A stretch of 63,415 nucleotides of DNA, counting the filler, from Folioceros fuciformis (Eukaryota): assembly GCA_049999805.1 (NCBI GenBank). It is 8 parts of 8 records of this genome, joined end to end, with 100 filler letters (N's around TTAATTAATTAA, not from the genome) between each part and the next. Parts side by side here need not be neighbours in the genome. Positions count along the whole stretch, not along the records: positions 29,319 to 36,465 come from JBNGIO010003426.1; 7 more parts are not named here. The stretch is one strand, 5' to 3'. The position numbers and the translations under genes were made by a program. The notes under the pieces are model-generated. The model worked only from the letters and a program-made list of their open reading frames with translations. It was not told the DNA's origin and made no database searches. Shown here piece after piece: positions 3,312-38,947 of the stretch (position 1 is its first letter; the number at the start of each line of letters is the position of its first letter).

Positions 3312-6056
3312 CTACTCGCTACTTGCCTCTTCTTCCGCCACGGCTTCAAATGTTCGCTTCACAGCATCGTACACCCACCTGCCAAATCCAACATCCACAT
3401 CGTCGACCACCTGCTTACCCATCACAGCATAAATTATCACAGCTTTGGAAACATGGAGCCGCAGGAGCTACATGCTTGCACTATACCTGCACGCAAAAAT
3501 GGGACACATCCCTCCTCCAGGTGTGACACCCTTTTCAACCGCTTCTCCTCGCTTTTGCACCTCCGCACAGTACTGCGCGTGGTGCAACACTTGGCAGCGA
3601 CCTTGGATGGACGCCAACGGGTTGTCGTCACAATGATTTGATTCATACACCTGAATGCACGCACGTTCAACATGTGCCTGCATCAGTTTGTGCCTACATC
3701 CTACAACCATTACACCTTCAAACGCAGAACTGAAAACAAATTTCACATTCCAAGGAAGATCATATCGACCAAAACTCTTTCTTCTACACAACCAGGAGCA
3801 AAAGTCTGCACTCAATTCGCTCACCACACACACCTCATCATGGTCTGGTTCCGAAGGCCGGACGGTATGCATTGGGATGTCAGAAGGATGGTAACACCAA
3901 CTCACTCTCGCCCATTTTGAACCCTGTTCTGTGTCTTCCCAAAGGCTCTGCAAACAGAATCCTTCTGCTTCACGTTCCCTCAAATCACACGCAACATTTA
4001 AACTGCTGGTGCAGTACCGACATGCCAGGCACCACACATCATACCTGAAGCCGGGCAATGTATGGAGCAGCAGTACTTGACTCAGGTTGAAACAATGCAA
4101 AATCGTCCTGCTTGAACACATGGTTCCCAACCCTACATGCTCCGTAGTAAACTCTTCCCTGCACTTCATGCAGCACCTTCCCGACCCAATCCATAACATG
4201 TAGATCTTCGCTTGATCCTTGCTCCTGGTCCCTGAGATCGACGACAGTACTAGCGTCCGCCACCTTCTCAGGTACACCACAACGTGTCTCTCCCTCTTCA
4301 ACTCTAGAAGCAATCTCATCAGACGCAGCACCCTCCTCTGCTTCTCCTCTACTAACCGTGTCACCACCACGATACACTCCTTTGCTTTGGGCATCCAGCA
4401 AAGGCAGGGTGCTATAAGGAGGCCCATTACTCTCAGCATCCACTTCCGTCCGGAAGCCACCTTCCCGGCCAACATTGGAGCTCCTGGTCTGAACCCTTGT
4501 CTGACCTGTTGAGCAACTACTGCTGCACTTTACATTGGTGTGCACTGGTGAGCACCCTTCTTTCCCCTGTTTTCTGGGATCCCTTCTTGACTTAGACTCT
4601 ACCTTCCCACGAACCTGAGAACTTGGAAACTCAGTGTCAACCACCGCAACCCCACGTTGGGCCGCATTCAAAAGTTTATGGTCAATCTGCAAATAACGCA
4701 CAGTCTCACCTTTCGTAGGACTTTGCCCGCCAAGTGACGTCCCTGTAGACGTGACCGTCGTCTGGTGGGAGATGGGTGCAAGACTACGTCCTGCAACATG
4801 TCTGTGATGGGATTTGTGTGCATGATGAGGGATTCGCATGGGTCCATATTGGGGAGGCTGAGGACGACCCTTATGTAGTATTACACACCTGGGGCAAACC
4901 CAGTCACCTTTGGCAGCTGGTCGCGCATTGAAATTGAGGAGACACACCACATGGTAAGCGCAGTCACAACTGTCACAGAGGAGAACACTGGCTGCATCTT
5001 TCGCCACACGCTGGCACATCTCACAGGGAATCGGTGGTGTCATGAACGAAGTTGATGACACCACCCGGTCCGAAGGACGCGCCCTCACGGATTTCATCGT
5101 CTGCATCACATACCGCTGCACGGCTTGCCTTAGCTGCTTCCTGTACGCTTCCTGTCCCAGTACCAGGCTTGCATCAGCCGGGAGGCCAAACACCGCAGCC
5201 GTGTCACTCCTCCCACTACGTCCCATAAACTGGGACAAAGCCCCAAGACGGTTCCAACAAGCGCCCAAATCGCCCGCTCCAGCCGCACACAATGTCATCA
5301 TCTCCCCATGCCAACTCCCGTTCCCTGAGCTTCTGGCTTCGTCGTCAAGTGCCCAGTCCGACGAGCAATCCATGGGGTCGCCTTCCGACGACGCCGATTC
5401 CGGACCGTCCTCATCTTCATGCCATCGCAGAAAGTTGGAAAATCAGCTTACCTTCTTCGCTTGCACAAATTACGCTAAGTCTGTACAAGAGCTGCACACT
5501 GTATGCAAACAGCATACCAGACAAGAATCGTGCGGAGGTGGCAGGATCAAAGCACTCCACCACGGCCTCTGCCGTGCCTGGCCTGAACCCGCCAATTCTC
5601 TGCACCCGGAAACTGACCGGACATGAGAAGCCGCAAATTGCGTTGCGAGTGCACTCACACAAGCCCCCAGTGAAGCCGCCACACGAGACGCCATCCAGCA
5701 AGCCGCCTACAGCACTAGCCTCGCCTTACCTGGCACTCGGTCCCCAAGCCGAGGTCTCGGATCAGCGACTCCACTGCCTTCCCGGACACCAGGAGCTCAG
5801 GAGCAACGCATTCCGTGAGAACACTCAAATTGCGAAAGGCCTTGGCCGCAAGACTGCGCTCTTTAGTGCCAGGAGGCTTTCCAGCACGCAGCTGAGCCAT
5901 TCCTGCCAACAGCATCACAATTTCAGCCGTGCGCCGGATCTTCTTGTCCTGACACCATCCCGCATCTTGCCTGCCTCGCTTGCCAAGCCCTGCAACAGCC
6001 GCTCCCAAATCCCGCGCCCGCCCCTCCTCGCCTTCGTCCCGGGCAGTTGCAGGCAT
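3312..6056 (-). CDS. Multi-exon PHD-finger + C-terminal BAH-domain chromatin reader
   Basis: PHD C4HC3 (CEMC..LLCDSCDCAYHVVC..WVCPRC) in ORF 4039-5373. BAH pieces over GT-AG exons (YYGACRVGNHVFKQDDFALF..PYIARLQ / SLWED..KWARVSWCYHP / VYESNH / WVYD..stop at 3312). N-terminal exon AEIVMLLAGM..LIRDLGL from ATG 6056. Splicing at 5370-5730 is uncertain. Confidence 0.8.
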
Positions 6057-11347: not shown

Positions 11348-12511
11348 CTAAGATGCGTTAGCACCAGCAACAATCTCCAAGATCTCTCCCGTAATCTTAG
11401 CCTGCCTTTGCCTATTGTACGAGATGGACAGGTTCTTCTTCAAGTCCGCAGCATTGTCACTGGCATTGTTCATGGCATTCATCCGAGCCGCCAGCTCGCT
11501 GGCAATCGACTCCTGGAGTGCACGCAGGATCTGGCTGTTCAAGTACAGCGGCAACAACGCGTCCAAGATCTGCACGGGTTCCTGCTCAAACTGCAAAACT
11601 GCGGTAAACTCCGGGGTGGGAGTCCTCACGGTTTCCCTCTCCACGCTAAATTTACCTTCCTTGGTGGTCAGGCGGAACATCTCATCATTGGCAGCATCCA
11701 CGCAGTTGCCGTTGATGTCACAAACCTCTCCTTGAGGGGACAGAGGCAACAGAGTGTGAATCACAGGGTCAGACTTGACCAAGGACACGAACTTGGTGTA
11801 AAGAAGCTCCACCTTGTCCACCTCCTCGCTCACGAACAGAGAGAACAGCTCGTCCGCAATAACCTGCGCATCCCTAGTGGTAGGAGCGTTGCCGGCATCC
11901 AAGAACTTGTCCACCGGAATATGATCCCGTCTCCTGAAGTAGGTGTTTCCCTTCTTGCCAACACTGACTACGGTGAAGGCAACCCCTATTTTCCTTAGCT
12001 CCCTCATCCTCTCCTCCGCCTTCTTCAACACATAGTTGTTGAATCCGCCGCACAGACCCCTGTCCCCTGTGAGCACCACAAGCGCAATCTTCTTCACAGG
12101 ACGCACTTGCGTGAGCGGGATATCGATGTCCTCGTTTTGGAGCTGCGCGTTCACGTTGAACAGAACCTTCACCAGGTTCTCAGAGAAGGGACGACCGTTC
12201 ACCACAGCCTCCTGCGCCCGCCGCACCTTAGCCGCGGCCACCAGCTTCATGGCGTCCGTGATCTTCTGCGTGTTCTTGACAGTGGCGATACGGTCTCGCA
12301 AGTCCTTGAGACTGCATACCGTCACGGCACGCCCCGCAGGACACTTTCTCTCCAGCTCCGCGCCAAGGTCGCAGACCTCCGAGGTGCGCAGTGCTAGCGA
12401 GCGGCTGGACAGGCCTTCAAAGGAGCCGAAAGCCTTCTTGCCGCCGCTCTGCCTCTGCGGAGCGGCAGTGGCCATTGACAGGGATGAGGCACAAGCCATG
12501 GCTGCCGCCAT
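11348..12511 (-). CDS. ATPC: Chloroplast ATP synthase gamma subunit, intronless, with transit peptide
   Basis: LKDLRDRIATVKNTQKITDAMKLVAAAKVRRAQ, TGDRGLCGGFN, redox insert VCDINGNCVD, RQAKITGEILEIVAGA. Confidence 0.98.
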   Translation of the reverse strand: MAAAMACASSLSMATAAPQRQSGGKKAFGSFEGLSSRSLALRTSEVCDLGAELERKCPAGRAVTVCSLKDLRDRIATVKNTQKITDAMKLVAAAKVRRAQEAVVNGRPFSENLVKVLFNVNAQLQNEDIDIPLTQVRPVKKIALVVLTGDRGLCGGFNNYVLKKAEERMRELRKIGVAFTVVSVGKKGNTYFRRRDHIPVDKFLDAGNAPTTRDAQVIADELFSLFVSEEVDKVELLYTKFVSLVKSDPVIHTLLPLSPQGEVCDINGNCVDAANDEMFRLTTKEGKFSVERETVRTPTPEFTAVLQFEQEPVQILDALLPLYLNSQILRALQESIASELAARMNAMNNASDNAADLKKNLSISYNRQRQAKITGEILEIVAGANAS

Positions 12512-13438
12512 CTCCTTTGCTCCAGCTGCTGCTCAACCAAACAACAAAAATGCGGCAACAAGCAGATTCCAATCACACAGCCAGGATCGTCCACATTCGC
12601 AGCGATTTCCCCAAACTGCCAAGAATCCGCTGCCCGTCTTGCCTGTCCCGCTCAAAACTGAAGAGACGGAGAGTTCCCTGTGCGTCCCCCTGTTGAAAAG
12701 GAGCCTCACAGGGGGATATCGAATGGATAAGAAAACCAAAGAGCACCGGTGACGGGTTACAGATATTGTTTCACCGCCGGTCGACGGCCATTGCAATAGG
12801 TTTACAATGTCCAGATTTGATCCCTTACTGTTTGATCTAAGTTTAATCTAAGATAAATTATCTAAACGATAAACACACTTAACTTCATCACGGGAGGCTG
12901 TGAGTTTGTTTCCGCGGTTAAGCGTCCTGGGCATAGGACGATGTCACCTCCAAAACGCCCAAGTACTGTGTTCTAAGTTAGAAAGAGAAACAGGATCGAG
13001 CATTGGCGATACAGAATTCGATGATATAGATATTAGGCGTCTTGATTTCCACCAATTTGCACATAGACGATGCAGACGGAAATATGAAACCTTCTCTCCC
13101 CAGAGAGGCTTGAACAAATAAGAGAGGGCAGACGGCGGGAAGGGAAAGGACTTGTCCACCTACGGAAGGCGCACAAGCCAAAAAGGCGCACCAAATACTA
13201 AGAACTACAGCGGCAAACCTGAAGGCGCAAAAGGTCAAAATAGCCGTCCCCATGAGCGAGCCTTCTTGCACACGTCCGACAGACAATCTTTAGAGCAGAA
13301 TTCCATTGCACACTGGCCAAGGTCCACAGTGGACGACCACGTTCTCGTTGAGGCCTCCTCTCCTTCTTGCCAAATCCATGGCGACGGGAAGCCATGGTTA
13401 CTGATTCTGGTGTATGCTTCACTCTTTGTACACCCTGA

Positions 13439-29841: not shown

Positions 29842-31574
29842 TCAAGAAGAAGACCTGGAGGATTTGGCCACGGCGGGTTTGCAGTGCCTCTGCAGGTAGT
29901 ATATTCCTTCTTGAATCGTTCCCAGCATGTGGTCTGAAACGCACCATGGGGATACGAGTATGCAGTTCAAGTCCTCCTGCTGTGCCCTGTGCAAGACCCA
30001 TTTTGCCCTCTGGATTTCGTCGAAGGTGGGATATGCTCCGTAGTTCCTCAACTCCGGAGCATTAGACCTTTGTTCCGGTTTCTTCCCGCAGCCGACAGGA
30101 TCACATGCCAGCACATAGAGTTTTCCCGGAGCGTACAGCCTTGGAGGATCCTTCTTCTCGTCCCCTTGGTTGCCGCTCTCGTCGGTCTTCTTCTCCTCTG
30201 CATCATTGTCACCTCCTGCATCTCGGTCTTTTGCGTGTCCAGGCAGGGTCTCGCAGACATTTCGCCGTGCCTCTTTCATGGTCTTGGTTATACCGTCCTG
30301 AGCCTGTTGAGCCTTCTTGCCCACATCCTCCTGAGTTCGCTGGAATGCACGCATGGCTCCGATTGCCTTTTTCAGGTTCTTCCAGTCCTCGTCGTCATGG
30401 GCGACCTTTTCTGCTTCGTCCCAGTCGAAGCTGCAAACCTGCTGCCGGAGCTTCTCCACGGCAGCAATGGAGAAGCGAGGAACCAAGTCGTGTGCCCCTA
30501 GAAAACAAGTGGAGAAGTTGGCACACTCCTCTGCCAGCTCCAGGCTGAGGCAAGCCGGGGGTGCGTAGCCCCAACATTCCAGATCCTTGTACTTGTCCCT
30601 CAGGTTGAGCCCGGACATGATACCCACAGCCGCACCCATGCTGTGCCCCACAATGACAAGCTTCACATCCTTTTGGTCTCGGCCATGAACCTCAAACGCC
30701 TTCTCGATAAGGGGCTCGACTTCCCTGCACAGCACCTCTGATGCATGTGCAAATCCTCCATGAGCAACGCCTTCATGAAAGTCCTCCGGCTGAGCACCAG
30801 AGTTGATCAATATATCCAGAACATGGGAAGTCCCTCTCACTGCCAAAACGACTGCTCCGTACGATGCGTCTACACACACCGCGTACGCAGGCCTGAGAGA
30901 GTCCGAATCCGGCTCCCACTGCGACCCAACAATGGCCGACTCTGGCAGATGGGAAAGGATTGAGAAAGAGCCGGAATCCGGCACGTAAACGGCTTCTGCC
31001 ATGGATCGCCAGTGCTGAGCTTCGTTGAGAAATTGTGCATCCTGCGACTGCTCCTCGGCTGGCTGGCCTGGAGCTTGGGGAGGTCTCTTCTCATTCATCT
31101 GGAAGGAGGGAAGAAACAAGAACAGCAACAGGTTTGTCAACACAACTGCATACCAAAATCCTTGTCATTCCAAACATCCAGTAAGGACAAGAAAAACTAG
31201 CTCACATTCTACACATCCAGCAGGGACAAGGAAAACTAGCTAACACCTTGGCCATGCAAGCCAAACCCAAAGTGAGATCCTGGATACCCCACGGACCAAT
31301 CTGCGATTGCAGACAGGTAGCCCCTTTGGCAATGATCTGCATAGGGTTGCCCTCCGCATTCCTGCTGGTTGCATTTTCCTGCATCTTCCCTACTGCGGCC
31401 TTGCCTGCCTTCCAGGCACCCCATGTCCCCACTCCTATCACCACAGCCCGCCANNNNNNNNNNNNNNNNNNNNNNNNNNNNNNNNNNNNNNNNNNNNNNN
31501 NNNNNNNNNNNNNNNNNNNNNNNNNNNNNNNNNNNNNNNNNNNNNNNNNNNNNTATCACCACAGCCCGCCACAT
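29842..31574 (-). CDS. Class 3 lipase (alpha/beta hydrolase, DAG-lipase-like), 2 exons
   Basis: LAVRGT, AHGGF, GHSMG nucleophile elbow, YAPPAC, DLVPRFS, LYAPGK, SDHM. Exon 1 MWRAVVIGVG..CMAK spans an apparently spurious gap. Confidence 0.9.
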
Positions 31575-31786
31575 CCTGTCCTGTCCTGTCCTGTAGCAGC
31601 AGCAGCAGCAGCAGATTGCACCTCTCGCTGTGGCTAGCTGAGATTGAGGCTAGTCCACTGCTGCCCATCACCCGGGAAGCGGTGCCTCCTTTTCCTCTCA
31701 TGCTGGTAGTGCCAAGTGGCGAGCCTGCAGAAGGATCCACCTGTCGATTTTCTCTCTCTAAATCCGGTGCATGGAAGGATCAGGGT

Positions 31787-34654
31787 ATGGATGTTACCAG
31801 CCGGAGTCGGATTCGCTGGGAACAGTTATTTTCTCCCCTCCTGCTGGTGCGGCCAATGAAGAAGGGAGCTCGATCAGGCAGACTTTTGGTGGATTCGTGT
31901 CTAATCGGAAACAACTCCAGAACCCCAAGGATCCGGCAAGAATGCCGCAGATTTCTGTCATCTCTGCGGGTGGCACCGATCGGTGGTAAAACGCTTGTAC
32001 ATGTAGTTTTTGCTCCAGAGAAAGATGTGAGGAGCATCTTGGACCTGGTGGGGGCCCTTAGTTCTTGCGTTGCATTTGCAGGGGTGGCAGGAGAACGGCA
32101 GACATTGTGGGACGGCCTTGTAGCTGATCCTTCACAGTGGTGGGACAAAAGGTCGAGCAAGGTATTTGCAGGTCGAGCGATTGGAAGCTGCGGTCTCCTT
32201 TGGGCCCAGGTGTTTATGATGGTCGTGTGCAGGTACAGGACAATCATCCAAATTTTGTGCACAGCGCAACCAGGGACGTCTTCTGGGTCGATTCACAGCA
32301 TGGACGGGTCGACAAGGAGTCGCAGTCAGTACAGAGTCGTGGTCCGTGGAGAGCAGGCTATGGTCAGCCTGGATTGCAAGAGGGAGCTGACCGTAAGGAC
32401 GCTAGGAGGTCCAAGTCATTTCCACTCTCATGCTTCCAAGAGTCGATCCCTTTTACCTGTTCTGAGGAGAAGGATGGGAAGGAGAAACGATGATATCTGT
32501 CTGGTCTGACAAATGCTATATCCTGGCAGGTGTGAGGTTGAAACCTGGAGCAATGTATTGGAACATGGGCAACTTAGCGAAGCGGTGGGGTTGCTGGAGT
32601 TGTTGATCAGTACAGGATCTTATGTTCCTGACTCACTCTTGTATCGTGTCCTCAAAAGGTGCATTGCAAGGAAAGATGTGGTTGCTGGAAAGCGTGTCCA
32701 TGCTCTTGCTGTGGGACGTGGATACGAGGCAAACACATTTCTGGTCAACCACATCATCCGCATGTATGCTTTTCATGGAATGCTCGAGGAAGCGAAAGAA
32801 GTCTTTTCCAAGCTGGCTGCACCAGACGTTTTCTCGTGGTTCTTTGTGATCTTAGGACATAGTGAATATGGGCAGCCAACGGAGGCAATCAAACTCTATG
32901 GACAGATGCGAGAGGCAGCTGTAGCGCCGGACAACCACACATTTGTGGCTGTTCTCAAGGCCTGTGGCACGGTAGCTGACCTGGCAACTGGAAAGCTAGT
33001 GCATGCTGATGTTCTTGGGAGCTCCTTGAAGCCTGATGTGTTTGTTGGCAACTGCCTGGTGGACATGTATGCCAAATGCGGGAGCTTAGTGGATGCCCGC
33101 AAGGTCTTTGACAGTCTGCAGACAAAGGACATTGTGACATGGACCTCCATGATTGCAGGATATGCAGAGCATGCCCTCGGTCAGGAAGCACTCGCTCTGT
33201 ATGCGAGTATGCAACAGGACGGCAAGAGTCCGCCTGATCACGTTCTGTTTGTGTGCCTTCTGAAAGCCTGTGCTAGTATTGGAGATTTAGATCAGGGGAA
33301 GCAGCTTCATATTCAGATTCAGGCAAAAGGGCTTGAGGCCGATGCAATTGTCGGGAACTGCTTGGTGGACATGTATGCAAAATGCGGAGGCCTGGAGGAG
33401 GCCCGTGCAATTTTCGAGAGATTGCCTATCAAAGACGTTGTTACGTGGACTGCCATGATAGCAGGGTATGCTCTGCAAGGGCTTGGCCACGAAGCTCTTG
33501 CTGTCTATGCAGCTATGCAGCAGGAGGGTAAGACTGGTGCTGACGAGTTCACATTTGTTTGCCTAATGAAAGCGTGTGCTAGTGTGGGAGCCATACAACA
33601 AGGGGAACAGCTCCATTCCCAGATTCGGTCAAGGGGGCTACAAAACGATGTGGTTGTCGGCAACAGCTTGGTGGACATGTACGCCAAATGTGGCAGCTTA
33701 GCGGCTGCTTGTGGTGTCTTCAACAGACTGCCCAAGAAGGATGTGGTGACATGGACTGCGCTAATGAATGCCTATGCCCTACACAATGAGTGCCACAAGG
33801 CTATGCAGTGCTTTGAAGAGATGAAGCAGCAAGGTGTCATGCCCAACGACGCCACTTTTCTGTGCCTTATCGTGGCATGCAGCCACGAAGGTCTGGTGGA
33901 CAAAGGTCGCCAGTACTTCAAGACGATGGTGGAAGATCATGGCGTCTCCCCAACAGTATCTCACTTCACTTGCATGGCCGACCTGTTCGGGCGAGCAGGC
34001 AATCTACAGGAGGCAGAAGACCTCCTCTTGAGTATGCCATTCGAGGATGGCGTAGCAGGGTGGACATCCTTGCTTAATGCCTGCAAGAGCCATGGTGATG
34101 TGGAGCGAGGGCAGCGTTGCTTCAATCACATAATCAAACTGGAACCTCAGAACGCATCTGCCTATGCGATGTTGGGGAACATCTACACAAATGCTGGCAG
34201 GTGGAGGGATGCAGACAAGATCGAGAGCCTAAGAAAGTCTGCAGGTGCTTGCAAGAAGCCTGCAAGGGCCTGGATCGAGGTAGACAACAGGGTTCACACA
34301 TTCAACGTCGGGGATGAAAGGGACGACCTTTCCTGGAAGCTGAAAAGCGTGAACCTCGTTTTGGGAGATGACACCCAGAAGTCCCACACAGAGTTGGGCC
34401 TGCAGCCATTATCTGACACACTGAAAGAAGATTCTCTGTGTGGGCATGCTGAGAAACTGGCATTGGCCTATGGTTTGCTCAACACTCGAGATGGCACACC
34501 TTTGCTGGTGACCAAGAATCTCCGCATGTGCAACGACTGCCACAATGGCACCAAGGCCATGTCCAGGATTGAGAAACGAGAGATCATAGTCAGAGACGCA
34601 CACCGTGTTCACCGTTTCGTTAATGGGTTCTGCTCCTGTGGGGGTAGGCATTGA
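31787..34654 (+). CDS. PLS-class PPR protein with DYW:KP (GRP-like) domain and N-terminal OSB/PDF-like motif; exons 31787-31985, 32082-32161, 32233-32408, 32530-34654
   Basis: P-L-S repeats (LVDMYAKCG, DVVTWTAMIAGYA, TFVCLLKAC), E motifs, KKPARAWIEV box, HAE..CNDCH, terminal CSCGGRH. The three upstream introns are GT-AG and phase-consistent. Confidence 0.93.
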
Positions 34655-36565: not shown

Positions 36566-38947
36566 ATGCATTCTGTGAAGGACCCCATACATCAGAGTGT
36601 ATCAATTGCAAACGTCTCGAGCTGTTCTGCACATGTCGCACAAATGGAAACCTTGATTGTTCTCAAAATTGACATGCAGAACACACATGATCAAGATCAG
36701 CATACTTGAACTTGGGCAATCCTTCCACCACATTTTTCTGTTGCATAGATTTCAGCTTCTCTATGTTCACATGCCCAACCCTCTTATGCCATATTTCAAC
36801 ATCACGTATGGCACTTGCATCATTTGTAAACATTGCTGCATTTAGCTCTGAAATGGATGCATCCAGAGTGAACATCCGTCCATTCCTACTAGTAACCTNN
36901 NNNNNNNNNNNNNNNNNNNNNNNNNNNNNNNNNNNNNNNNNNNNNNNNNNNNNNNNNNNNNNNNNNNNNNNNNNNNNNNNNNNNNNNNNNNNNNNNNNAT
37001 GCAACACATCTTGCAGACTCTTCTGCTGACCATTCGGCATCCTAAGAGGAACAATTCCTCTGTGCTTTATGTCATGTTGTGTGTCATCTCCTGTACACAC
37101 ATGACCATGGGGACCTGCATCCATCTTGTTAAACCACTCACCATGCGGAGTCATGTGGTTTGATGCTCCTGAATCAATGTACCATCTCTCATCATTCTAC
37201 CCATCCTATTCAGAGAGATTTTGCATGGCAAACAACCTATCCTGGTCATTTCCAGCATTACTAGAGGAGGCATAGTTCCCATGCTGCCTTCCTTTTCCTC
37301 TCATGTCTGCTTGCTGCTTAAAGCAGTCCTTGGCAATATGACCAACCTTGCCACAGTAGTAACACTCCTTGTCTCTATTGGAATGGTCATGAGATTGAAA
37401 AGAACCATCTCTTCCTCTTGTGGCTCTACCTGCGCCTCTAAAACTTCCAGATTCTCTTTGGCCTTGCGCATTTCCTCCATGCCAATTGTCTTGCTGATTC
37501 TGCGTGTTCCGAGCATCACCCCGTCCTCGGAATGAACCACGACCTCTGTGGCCTCTCCCACGCTGGTTAGAAAACAACACAGTGTCTCTCCCTTCATATA
37601 TACCTAAACCTGTGTTCAGACCAAGCTTAACTTCCTCATGCAGCAACAAAGCAACCAATTCGTCCCAACTTGGGAACTCAACTCTCACAGAGATTGATGT
37701 GTCAAAGGACTTGTACTCCTTGCCAAGTCCGTTCAGAGTAACTACAACCATGTCATCTTCTGTCACACTTGCACTGATTGTAGCAAGCTGATCAGCTATG
37801 GTCTTCACCTCTGTTGTATACACAAGTATGGATTTAGTACCTCGTGACACTTTGTTGAACTGCTGCTTCAACTGGATTTTCCTAGCATGCGTGACATTTC
37901 CATAGTTCCTCATGAGTATGTCCCATGCATCCTTCAGAGACTCACATCCCGTGATCTGTATGACCATAGCATATGAAATGCTTAAGGAGAGCCAGTGTAA
38001 CACTTTACATGCTCTCTCAGTCTAATGCTTGTGAGCAGTCTTTTGCTCTTGTGATGGAGTACGATCCATCTCTGGTTCACTCTCATCACCTATGCAGAGG
38101 TCCCAATAGCCTCTACCCACCAAGAAGTTCTTCATCCTGAACTTCCACAAAGCAAAATTCTTATTATCCAACTTCTCTCCCACGACCTGAGAGATATTGT
38201 CTGATCCCTGCACATTAGCCATGATTCAGGCTCCTTTACGCACCAACACTTGTCCTGCAACTCCCTGCACTGCTGTAGAGCTCTAGCACTCCACAAGCCT
38301 CAATCAAATCTCAACAATTCCTGAATGTGCAGCTGACTCTTCGCTAAGCAAAAACAGCCTTTGCTCAAGCTTTCAAAAACAAAAAAAACAAAACACTGTT
38401 TGCCAAGTTCAGGCCTTCCTCCTCGCAAATCCTGAGCCTGCTGTGGCTTCCACTGCCTGGTTGCCTCCAGTAGTTGCTGCTCCTCTTGAGTCTCTCTCCC
38501 TCTTGCGCCTCTCGCGCGCTCCTTCGCCTATAGCGCCTGTTGCGGCTTCCTACGCCGCCTACGCCGATGCAACTCCTGCGCCTCTCAATGGCTTGTGTTG
38601 CCAGCCACCTTCACGCTCACAGCCATAGCCTCAAACCCCCGCCATAGCTACAATGGCCGCCGGCACTCTCTCTGGTTCTGATACCATGTTGAAATAGCAC
38701 CACAGGCTTAGAAGGACTCCACTGTTCCTTACTTATGGTGCACAGGATGCTACATATATAGCCTTCAGGCGGGGCAATCCTCGATAAGGTAAGCCTTAGT
38801 CTCGAGGGTGCAAAATCCTAGTATATCCTAATATATCCTAATAACACTTAGGTGATCGATAACGACGAGTTCAATATGGGATAATCTACATTATCCTAAG
38901 TGTTGTATGCTCTTAATAACAATACAATTAGAGCTTGATTTCTAACA
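36566..38947 (-). mobile_element. Ty1/Copia retrotransposon 5' half (LTR 38687-38947, PBS, gag, protease, start of integrase), with in-frame stops
   Basis: LTR TGTT..AACA; PBS TGGTATCAGA at 38677-38686 (-); gag NFALWKFRMKNFL; CYYCGKVGHIAKDC knuckle; WYIDSGASNHMT; WHKRVGH; LIHSDVWGP. Confidence 0.93.

What the first reader, a model, noticed from the sequence alone, without database searches (positions are those of the whole stretch)
31787..32530. OSB-type PDF ssDNA-binding motif fused to a DYW:KP PPR editing factor
Seen: three phase-consistent GT-AG introns (31986-32081, 32162-32232, 32409-32529) join an Arg/Ser-rich presequence (..CRRFLSS..) and the spliced peptide LWDGLVADPSQWWDKRSSK|VQDNHPNFVHSATRDVFWVD to the PPR ORF. 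The ORF track misses this. Known: Organellar Single-stranded DNA Binding (OSB) proteins have PDF motifs of consensus W..ff.nP..WWDNR..K.np..PDFKHK.t.eaLW, which mediate ssDNA binding. Inference: a chimeric organellar (probably mitochondrial) protein joining a single-stranded nucleic-acid-binding module to a sequence-specific reverse-editing enzyme. It might tether editing to nucleoids or transcription bubbles, or act as a built-in cofactor. I do not recall this architecture being characterised.
Basis: partly seen in the sequence, partly recalled or inferred. Interest (0 to 1): 0.85.

Follow-up and report, generated by a model that had tools for sequence, protein, structure and literature searches.

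The report
PDF-motif PPR RNA-editing factor gene
A plant nuclear gene really does join a short strand-binding motif, known from proteins that maintain organelle genomes, to an organelle RNA-editing enzyme, and this apparently undescribed combination is common in clubmosses, mosses and liverworts.

Summary
All three GT-AG introns are removed in a contig of run X1 that matches the window perfectly. The same spliced form occurs in diverged contigs from two other organisms. The result is an 859-aa protein: an Arg-rich presequence, one PDF-type motif (residues 71-114), a linker, a PLS-type PPR array, an E motif and a 133-aa DYW:KP domain.

A profile built only from PDF motifs of named OSB proteins matches the spliced peptide at 43.9 bits (E 8e-16 for one target) with no gap across the exon 2/3 junction. 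The best of 2000 shuffles scores 11.4 bits. The copy is incomplete: the last third of the motif is absent and 9 of 13 invariant residues are kept.

The fusion is not a one-off and is not KP-specific. Of the 120 best PPR homologues, 26 carry N-terminal PDF motifs, mostly canonical DYW or E-type proteins from Diphasiastrum and Calypogeia. Sphagnum and Adiantum examples also exist.

My literature searches found no paper linking PDF motifs to PPR proteins.

Function is inferred, not shown. The most likely role is an accessory binder of single-stranded nucleic acid beside the PPR tract.

The parts
31787..31985 (+). Exon 1: start codon and an Arg/Ser-rich presequence (residues 1-66 plus the first base of codon 67). 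An alternative start is M24 at 31856.
   Evidence: Frame and composition: 12 R, 2 K, 2 D and 2 E in 67 aa. Covered by spliced contigs X1 rec 1, X2 rec 21 and X10 rec 7. X10 lacks 1 nt at 31829, so the start codon is uncertain.
31986..32081 (+). Intron 1 (96 nt, GT..AG, in frame, no stop if retained).
   Evidence: Its removal is inferred from record coordinates: a 79-nt span in X1 and X2 and a 182-nt span in X10 (table 8).
32082..32161 (+). Exon 2: first half of the PDF-type motif (residues 68-93, ...LWDGLVADPSQWWDKRSSK).
   Evidence: Scores 30.8 bits alone on the OSB-only PDF profile.
32162..32232 (+). Intron 2 (71 nt, GT..AG). It splits the motif just after the invariant Lys (K93).
   Evidence: The profile alignment runs ungapped across the junction.
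32233..32408 (+). Exon 3: second part of the PDF-type motif (residues 94-114, VQDNHPNFVHSATRDVFWVDS), then a hydrophilic linker (115-151).
   Evidence: X1, X2 and X10 pieces lie on 32231-32406.
32093..32295 (+). PDF-type motif as matched by the profile (residues 71-114), interrupted by intron 2.
   Evidence: 43.9 bits, E 8e-16 (one target), profile positions 5-48 of 63. Coordinates.
32409..32529 (+). Intron 3 (121 nt, GT..AG).
   Evidence: The junction is contiguous in three contigs: X1 538|539, X2 415|416, X10 512|513.
32530..34654 (+). Exon 4: PLS-type PPR array, E motif, DYW:KP domain and stop codon.
   Evidence: Pfam: PPR_2 3.8e-64, PPR 3.5e-63 (10 stretches), E_motif 4e-15, DYW_deaminase 1.2e-30.
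34253..34651 (+). 133-aa DYW:KP domain. It starts KKPARAW and has HAE at 65-67, K88, M92, CNDC at 93-96, and ends G131-R132-H133.
   Evidence: for numbering. Criteria taken from PMC9478123 and PMC11845758.

Best explanation
Shown. This is an expressed four-exon nuclear gene for an 859-aa PLS-class PPR protein with an E motif and a DYW:KP domain. The KP domain ends in GRH, close to the GRP and DRH variants reported from hornworts. The N-terminal extension carries one diverged and truncated copy of the PDF motif of OSB organellar ssDNA-binding proteins. The gene belongs to a large class of seed-free-plant PPR proteins with 1-3 N-terminal PDF motifs. The motifs of this class are compatible with a single origin.

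Inferred. After import into an organelle, the PPR array reads its RNA target and the KP domain performs U-to-C editing, as designer GRP-type KP domains do. The PDF module is a small helix, three-stranded sheet, helix unit that binds single-stranded nucleic acid in OSB proteins. Here it sits on a flexible linker of about 37 aa at the N-terminal end of the PPR array, that is, towards the 5' side of the bound RNA. I propose that it acts in cis as a clamp that does not depend on sequence. It would add affinity, or keep the strand next to the PPR footprint unpaired.
For: - Splicing in three organisms' contigs.
- Pfam finds PPR, E motif and DYW.
- KP criteria are met.
- An OSB-only PDF profile (38 motifs from 13 proteins that are NCBI-named OSBs or carry the SSB Pfam domain) hits the spliced protein at 43.9 bits, E 8e-16. 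Exon 2 alone scores 30.8, exon 3 alone 10.1, and the best of 2000 shuffles 11.4.
- The reverse test also works. A profile of 14 PPR-borne motifs retrieves named OSB2 and OSB3 proteins at E 1e-27 to 8e-69.
- 26 of the 120 best PPR homologues carry the motif.
- 132 stored PPR proteins carry 1 (95), 2 (31) or 3 (6) copies. The copies lie towards the N-terminus: the last motif ends at a median 0.19 (maximum 0.54) of protein length. In OSB proteins the first motif starts at a median 0.51.
- 35 of 41 non-redundant PPR-borne motifs form one clade (SH-aLRT 96). Holding all 41 together, the window's included, is not rejected (p-AU 0.79, lnL 26.6 higher).
- Orthologous contigs keep the motif. Of the four amino-acid changes I could read, three (L79F, D108E, F110L) move to the family consensus and V80L moves to a residue common in OSB copies (table 3).
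- AlphaFold2 folds the family motif confidently, pLDDT 88.8.
- Passages in PMC6963530, PMC4166229 and PMC6451138 state that the PDF motif is responsible for, and in AtOSB1 sufficient for, ssDNA binding.
- Designer GRP-type KP domains perform U-to-C editing (PMC9478123).
Against: - No binding or editing data exist for any PDF-PPR protein.
- Recombinant AtOSB1 and AtOSB2 preferred ssDNA over RNA (passage in PMC4166229). This argues against an RNA clamp.
- The window's copy lacks the last third of the motif. The invariant Pro52 and Trp54 and the second helix are absent. D34 is N and K38 is S, so 9 of 13 invariant columns are kept. It may bind weakly or not at all.
- Close KP relatives such as P0005 and P0068 show no PDF motif in their ORFs, so the module is not required for KP proteins in general.
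- The N-to-5' polarity of PPR-RNA binding is established knowledge that I recall. I did not test it here.
Confidence: 0.5

Rival explanations
1. Nucleoid or ssDNA tether. The PDF module binds single-stranded DNA, for example the displaced strand of transcription bubbles, R-loops or replication intermediates. This would place the editing factor on the nucleoid so that editing is coupled to transcription.
For: The only biochemistry reported for PDF motifs is ssDNA binding, with preference over RNA (passages in PMC4166229, PMC6963530 and PMC6451138). The motifs of PPR proteins and OSB proteins are mutually retrievable at very low E-values.
Against: Nothing here shows localisation or DNA binding. 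The window's copy is truncated. A tether would not need to sit consistently at the N-terminal end of the PPR array, as it does in the 132 stored PPR proteins.
Confidence: 0.2
2. Protein-protein module. The PDF unit mediates self-association or recruitment of partners, acting as an assembly handle for an editing complex in plants that lack MORF proteins.
For: AtOSB2 is reported to be a tetramer (passage in PMC6963530). MORF genes occur only in seed plants (PMC13386178). In my sample, PDF-PPR proteins with a named source came only from seed-free plants, with 0 of 22 gymnosperm PPR hits.
Against: No evidence links the PDF motif, rather than the OB-like domain, to oligomerisation. The complementary distribution rests on a small and biased sample. 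I ran no complex prediction.
Confidence: 0.12
3. Vestige. In this gene the PDF motif is a decaying remnant inherited from a PDF-PPR ancestor, kept only as part of the N-terminal extension and without a function of its own.
For: The last third of the motif is missing and 4 of 13 invariant residues are lost. The window copy sits on a fairly long branch (0.62) and its place in the tree is unresolved. The region just after the motif differs at many listed sites in the orthologues (table 3).
Against: The first two-thirds still score 43.9 bits. Orthologues in two other organisms retain it, with changes towards the consensus. The reading frame and all splice sites are intact.
Confidence: 0.15
4. Artefact. 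The upstream exons belong to another transcript or to a mis-assembly, and the PPR protein starts within exon 4.
For: Intron 1 is in frame, so sequence alone does not prove it. An assembly gap (N run 31455-31553) lies about 230 nt upstream. The runs are only guessed to be RNA.
Against: One contig with 0 mismatches, and two diverged contigs from other organisms, join all four exons at exactly the predicted sizes. The PDF profile alignment is continuous across the exon 2/3 junction. A related protein, P0087, has the same order (presequence, PDF, linker, PPR) in one uninterrupted ORF.
Confidence: 0.02

Closest known systems
PDF motif of OSB proteins (Arabidopsis OSB1-4; NCBI-named OSB2/OSB3 of angiosperms)
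   Same: The same sequence family. The window peptide matches an OSB-only profile at 43.9 bits. It keeps W10, W20, W21, D22, R24, K27, P33, F35 and W45 of the 13 invariant columns.
   Different: - In OSB proteins the motif follows an OB/SSB-like domain and lies in the C-terminal half. Here it is N-terminal to a PPR array and there is no OB-like domain.
- The window copy lacks the C-terminal P-x-W-V helix.
- It has N for D in the name-giving P-D-F.
PPR-DYW:KP proteins (hornwort GRP and DRH variants; designer KP2/KP3 of PMC9478123)
   Same: PLS array, E motif and a 133-aa KP domain with a KP pair, HAE, Lys88, Met92 and a non-DYW end. The nearest relatives end in GRP (P0005, P0068, P0087; 52-55% identity).
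   Different: It ends in GRH rather than GRP or DRH. It carries an N-terminal PDF-type motif, which none of the passages I read mentions.
PDF-bearing PLS PPR proteins in public proteomes, all unnamed or 'hypothetical' (Diphasiastrum complanatum, Sphagnum spp., Calypogeia fissa, Adiantum capillus-veneris)
   Same: The same architecture: presequence, 1-3 PDF motifs, linker, PPR array.
   Different: - Their motifs are complete (65 aa, mean column identity 70%).
- Most are HSE/PG-type DYW or E-type without DYW.
- The window's protein is KP-type with a truncated motif.
- The only other KP-type example found is P0087.
Editing factors with added RNA-binding or helper domains (MORF-RRM fusions such as ORRM1, RRM-PPR fusions; PMC13386178)
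   Same: The same logic: an accessory nucleic-acid-binding or helper module joined to the editing machinery.
   Different: The module is different (PDF, not RRM or MORF). That kingdom-wide survey has 0 occurrences of 'OSB' or 'PDF' in its main text. Its supplements could not be read.

Membership tests
OSB-type PDF motif | Significant profile match to PDF motifs of genuine OSB proteins | tested here: met
   OSB-only HMM: 43.9 bits, E 8e-16 for one target, residues 71-114. Best of 2000 shuffles 11.4 bits. Next best six-frame piece of the window 5.5 bits.
OSB-type PDF motif | Invariant residues of the motif (13 columns invariant in 22 PPR- and OSB-borne copies) | tested here: inconclusive
   9 of 13 are kept. 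D34 is N, K38 is S, and P52 and W54 are absent. 3 of 4 near-invariant columns are kept.
OSB-type PDF motif | Full-length unit, about 50 aa in the papers and 63-65 profile positions here, including the C-terminal helix | tested here: not met
   Only profile positions 5-48 of 63 align. No P-x-W-[VILA] occurs in any frame of 32290-32560. The family model has its second helix at positions 54-63.
OSB-type PDF motif | Binds single-stranded DNA | not testable with these tools
   Known for AtOSB1 and AtOSB2 only from passages in PMC6963530, PMC4166229 and PMC6451138.
OSB protein family | OB/SSB-like domain preceding the PDF motif(s) | tested here: not met
   No PF00436 hit on the N-terminal exons or the PPR exon. 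No hit of the spliced protein to an HMM of OSB N-terminal regions. It is therefore not an OSB protein, only a carrier of the motif.
PLS-class PPR-E-DYW editing factor | PPR repeat array, E motif, and DYW deaminase domain with HxE...CxxC | tested here: met
   Pfam: PPR 3.5e-63 (10 stretches), E_motif 4e-15, DYW_deaminase 1.2e-30. HAE and CNDC are present.
DYW:KP subclass | Lys-Pro pair in the N-terminal box in place of Pro-Gly | tested here: met
   The domain starts K-K-P-A-R-A-W. Criterion from PMC11845758.
DYW:KP subclass | Ala (or Cys) after the catalytic His (HAE, not HSE) | tested here: met
   H65-A66-E67. Criterion from PMC9478123 and PMC11845758.
DYW:KP subclass | Lys88 and Met92 in a 132/133-aa domain; divergent C-terminal triplet | tested here: met
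   Counting 133 residues from the C-terminus puts K at 88 and M at 92, and the end is G-R-H. Hornwort variants are named DRH and GRP (PMC9478123).
DYW:KP subclass | U-to-C editing activity | not testable with these tools
   Shown only for designer KP proteins. According to PMC11845758 the activity of natural KP proteins is still unknown.

The most novel reading that the evidence does not exclude
PDF-PPR proteins are an ancient, single-origin and so far undescribed class of organellar RNA-editing factors of seed-free land plants. Their built-in PDF module would do a job that seed plants later gave to separate helper proteins such as MORFs: stabilising the factor on a single-stranded substrate, or coupling editing to the transcribing nucleoid. 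The class would then have been lost, or nearly lost, in seed plants. The window's gene would be the reverse-editing (U-to-C) representative of this class.
Probability: 0.2. Interest if true: 0.8.

Novelty: new variant of a known kind. Interest (0 to 1): 0.62.

Why it matters
PPR editing factors are usually described as a PPR array plus E and DYW domains. How they work without MORF helpers in bryophytes, lycophytes and ferns is an open question.

A conserved N-terminal module for binding single-stranded nucleic acid, carried by many of these proteins, gives a concrete and easily tested candidate for an in-cis helper. Pfam has no PDF model, so domain annotation does not see it.

It also widens the known roles of the PDF motif beyond genome maintenance. 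If PDF modules improve target affinity, that could help with the low efficiency of PPR-DYW:KP tools for programmable U-to-C editing.

Tried and rejected
- Sequencing runs: no RNA holder is listed on record. The runs I used are only guessed to be RNA.
- The exon-3 peptide searched against longer proteins found nothing at E <= 0.01. Only 1 candidate shared words.
- No whole genome is held for this window, so paralogous PDF exons and the organism's own OSB gene could not be sought.
- The spliced protein could not be handed to the database, structure or complex tools, because joined sequence may not be typed. All tests of the window's own motif are local HMM or BLAST runs in scripts.
- The PDF profile has no sequence match in the PDB (0 at E <= 1).
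- Foldseek's best hit is E 4.2, with WW-domain rows at E 7-10 and probability 0.02. VIA-align's best is Z 3.8. I read no fold assignment from these.
- Zaegel et al. 2006 is not held under its DOI, PubMed id or PMC id. What it says is known to me only through passages in later papers.
- Literature search was badly designed and uninformative.
- A comparison of paralogues was not discriminating, because the sample holds many near-identical isoforms. Median identities over 120 pairs of 30 proteins were: PDF 82%, PPR body 86%, presequence 61%.
- KP enrichment is not seen, but the test is weak.
- I ran no prediction of targeting, because no tool for it is on hand.
Full report

The three proposed introns are 31986-32081 (96 nt), 32162-32232 (71 nt) and 32409-32529 (121 nt). 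Each begins GT and ends AG after a pyrimidine-rich stretch. Joining exons 31787-31985, 32082-32161, 32233-32408 and 32530-34654 gives a single frame of 859 codons plus a stop. Introns 2 and 3 are required for the frame. Intron 1 is in frame and free of stops, so sequence alone cannot settle it.

Public runs settle it. One run (X1) holds 60% of the sampled words of 31600-33200. When laid on the window, its record 1 (946 nt, no mismatch) covers 31832-31984, 32231-32406 and 32528-33065. Intron 3 is removed cleanly, since record positions 538|539 are contiguous. Exactly 79 letters lie between the first two pieces. That is the size expected if only exon 2 lies there, with the 2-nt AG ambiguity (table 8). 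Contigs from two other organisms show the same structure. X2 record 21 has a 79-nt span and X10 record 7 a 182-nt span, both as expected. They differ from the window by about 5-16% of letters depending on the exon.

The tool only guesses that these runs are RNA. That they are transcripts is my inference from intron-less contigs in three organisms. X10 lacks one base at 31829, between Met1 (31787) and Met24 (31856), so the true start codon is uncertain.

2. What is encoded?

Exon 4 is a PLS-type PPR protein. Pfam gives PPR_2 3.8e-64, PPR 3.5e-63 over 10 stretches, E_motif 4e-15 and DYW_deaminase 1.2e-30.

The last 133 residues fit the DYW:KP numbering used in the literature exactly. The domain starts K-K-P-A-R-A-W, so it has the Lys-Pro pair. 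It has H65-A66-E67, K88, M92 and C93-x-x-C96, and it ends G-R-H.

These are the features that passages of PMC9478123 and PMC11845758 give for KP domains:
- a KP pair instead of PG;
- Ala or Cys instead of Ser after the catalytic His;
- an essential Lys88;
- M92 where PG domains have Val;
- a variable C-terminal triplet;
- hornwort variants named DRH and GRP.

The nearest database relatives are only 52-55% identical, and several of them end in GRP. The organism is therefore probably a hornwort or something close to one. This is an inference and is not established.

The window is ordinary gene-dense nuclear DNA. It also holds a class-3 lipase gene, a PHD/BAH gene, an ATP synthase gamma ORF and a copia gag fragment.

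3. Is the N-terminal peptide a PDF motif?

Pfam has no model for it. The exon peptides match 0 families. Proteins with up to 13 PDF repeats carry no precomputed Pfam domain.

The lead came from the PPR homologues. 26 of the 120 best PPR hits carry a near-canonical motif at their N-termini. A profile of 14 such PPR-borne motifs (A1) found 373 proteins at E <= 0.001 among 4817 candidates. The hits include proteins that NCBI names OSB2 or OSB3 and that carry the SSB domain PF00436, at E 1e-27 to 8e-69.

I then built a profile from OSB-type proteins only: 38 motifs from 13 proteins. The window's spliced protein matches it at 43.9 bits, E 8e-16 for a single target. Residues 71-114 align to profile positions 5-48 of 63, without a gap across the exon 2/3 junction.

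Controls:
- exon 2 alone scores 30.8 bits;
- exon 3 alone scores 10.1 bits;
- the best of 2000 shuffles with the same composition scores 11.4 bits;
- among 1319 six-frame pieces of the window, the next best after the two exons scores 5.5 bits.

So the homology claim stands, and the match itself supports the splice junction.

The copy is incomplete, however. Of the 13 columns invariant in 22 PPR- and OSB-borne motifs, it keeps 9: W10, W20, W21, D22, R24, K27, P33, F35 and W45. D34 is Asn, K38 is Ser, and P52 and W54 with the following helix are absent. No P-x-W-[VILA] exists in any frame up to exon 4.

In the orthologous contigs I could read four amino-acid changes in the motif: L79F, V80L, D108E and F110L. 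Three move to the family consensus and V80L to a residue common in OSB copies. Table 3 is cut, so further differences may exist.

4. How common is the fusion?

It is common. The exhaustive search found 1276 cluster representatives at E <= 0.001. Of the 150 listed, 71 are OSB-like and 67 are PDF arrays or fragments without either flanking domain. 10 are new PPR proteins, and 2 more were already stored.

Among all stored proteins, 132 PPR proteins carry 1 (95), 2 (31) or 3 (6) motifs. This count includes isoforms brought in. The motifs lie towards the N-terminus: the last one ends at a median 0.19 of protein length (maximum 0.54). In OSB proteins the first motif starts at a median 0.51.

PDF motifs among the 120 best PPR homologues, by source:

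| Source | With PDF |
|---|---|
| Diphasiastrum | 20 of 34 |
| Calypogeia | 3 of 3 |
| Ferns | 0 of 15 |
| Gymnosperms | 0 of 22 |
| Ceratodon | 0 of 2 |
| Selaginella | 0 of 1 |

The profile searches added several Sphagnum species (a 39-member cluster) and Adiantum.

By DYW type in the same 120 proteins:

| DYW type | With PDF |
|---|---|
| HSE/PG-like | 13 of 38 |
| No DYW domain | 12 of 59 |
| KP-like | 1 of 19 |

So there is no KP enrichment. All the KP-like rows are contig ORFs whose N-termini may be missing, so this is weak. The one other KP example, P0087, ends in GRP and is 54% identical. It has the same order of parts, with a complete motif, in one ORF.

For the tree of motifs I reduced 593 copies to 375 at 75% identity. 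I then took all 41 PPR-borne copies, 50 of 158 OSB-borne copies and 25 of 176 others at random, giving 116 rows and 58 columns. The tree places 35 of the 41 PPR-borne copies in one clade (SH-aLRT 96) that mixes lycophyte, liverwort, moss and fern proteins. The window's copy is unresolved. Forcing all 41 together gives a better likelihood (+26.6) and is not rejected (p-AU 0.79). A single ancient fusion is therefore compatible with the data, though not proven on so few columns.

5. How might it work?

AlphaFold2 on the family alignment gives a confident small unit (pLDDT 88.8). It has a helix at 2-15, strands at 20-22 and 35-37, a short bridge at 43-44, and a helix at 54-63. It has no sequence match in the PDB and no convincing structural match (Foldseek best E 4.2; VIA best Z 3.8).

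[quoted passage not shown] They also say that OSB1 and OSB2 prefer ssDNA to dsDNA or RNA. The primary paper was not available to me.

In the PPR proteins the unit sits before the array, on a hydrophilic linker of about 37 residues. From recalled knowledge, this places it towards the 5' side of the bound RNA.

My best reading (about 0.5) is an in-cis binder of single-stranded nucleic acid that does not depend on sequence and helps the PPR array. The rivals are:
- a tether to nucleoid ssDNA (0.2);
- a protein-interaction handle (0.12);
- a vestige in this particular gene (0.15);
- an artefact (0.02).

The truncation and the reported ssDNA preference are the main points against the clamp model.

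6. Is it known?

In the held library:
- 'PDF motif' together with 'pentatricopeptide' occurs in 1 paper, an unrelated review of mitochondrial DNA replication.
- 'PDF domain' together with 'pentatricopeptide' occurs in 0 papers.
- 'OSB', 'PPR' and 'DYW' as whole words occur together in 1 paper, on Arabidopsis PPR localisation. I saw only its listing.
- Only 11 papers hold 'PDF motif', 'OSB proteins' or 'OSB family'. None of the 10 listed concerns PPR proteins by title.
- A 2026 study of OSB evolution has 0 occurrences of 'PPR'.
- A 2026 kingdom-wide survey of editing-factor domain fusions has 0 occurrences of 'OSB' or 'PDF'.

For these papers I read passages only. Supplements are closed. Subscription papers are not held, including Gutmann et al. 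2020 and Zaegel et al. 2006, so a mention there cannot be excluded.

It told me that named OSB proteins are in the protein collection. It does not concern PPR proteins.

7. Verdict

It needs correction on uniqueness, KP specificity and completeness of the motif, and the function is untested. The finding is a new variant of known kinds, and it points to a wider class, apparently undescribed, that can be tested directly.

Noticed in passing
31829 and 31787-31876: The contig of organism C (X10) lacks one base at 31829, between Met1 (31787) and Met24 (31856). The X1 and X2 contigs stop at 31830-31832. The conserved reading frame may therefore start at Met24.
   Followed up: partly
29845-31164 (-): A single 440-aa ORF with a class-3 lipase domain (PF01764, 1.6e-15) lies head-to-head with the PPR gene. 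The shared upstream region holds an assembly gap (N run 31455-31553), a CCTGT repeat and a CAG repeat (about 31580-31615).
   Followed up: partly
11351-12532 (-): An uninterrupted 394-aa ORF matches ATP synthase gamma (PF00231, 2.5e-91). It appears intron-less in a genome whose PPR gene has three short introns.
   Followed up: no
36663-38021 (-): A copia-type LTR retrotransposon gag fragment (PF14223 3.7e-18, zinc knuckle) lies next to ORFs interrupted by N runs, downstream of the PPR gene.
   Followed up: no
3471-5442 (-): Overlapping ORFs with PHD-finger and BAH domains, probably exons of one chromatin-reader gene.
   Followed up: no
stored proteins P0121, P0122, P0224-P0226: Some proteins consist of long arrays of PDF motifs: 9-11 repeats counted in P0122, P0224, P0225 and P0226, and 13 matched stretches in P0121 (Kingdonia uniflora, 1160 aa). 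67 of the 148 classified representatives matched neither the PPR query nor the HMM of OSB N-terminal regions. Some may be fragments or merged gene models.
   Followed up: partly
stored proteins P0157 and P0166: PDF motifs appear inside gene models named 'Interactor of constitutive active ROPs 2' (Striga) and a kinesin (Coptis). These may be merged neighbouring genes rather than true fusions.
   Followed up: no
stored proteins P0005, P0068, P0013: The closest GRP- or DRP-ending KP relatives show no PDF motif in their ORFs. Within the KP group the module is therefore either variable or missed because upstream exons are absent from contig ORFs.
   Followed up: partly
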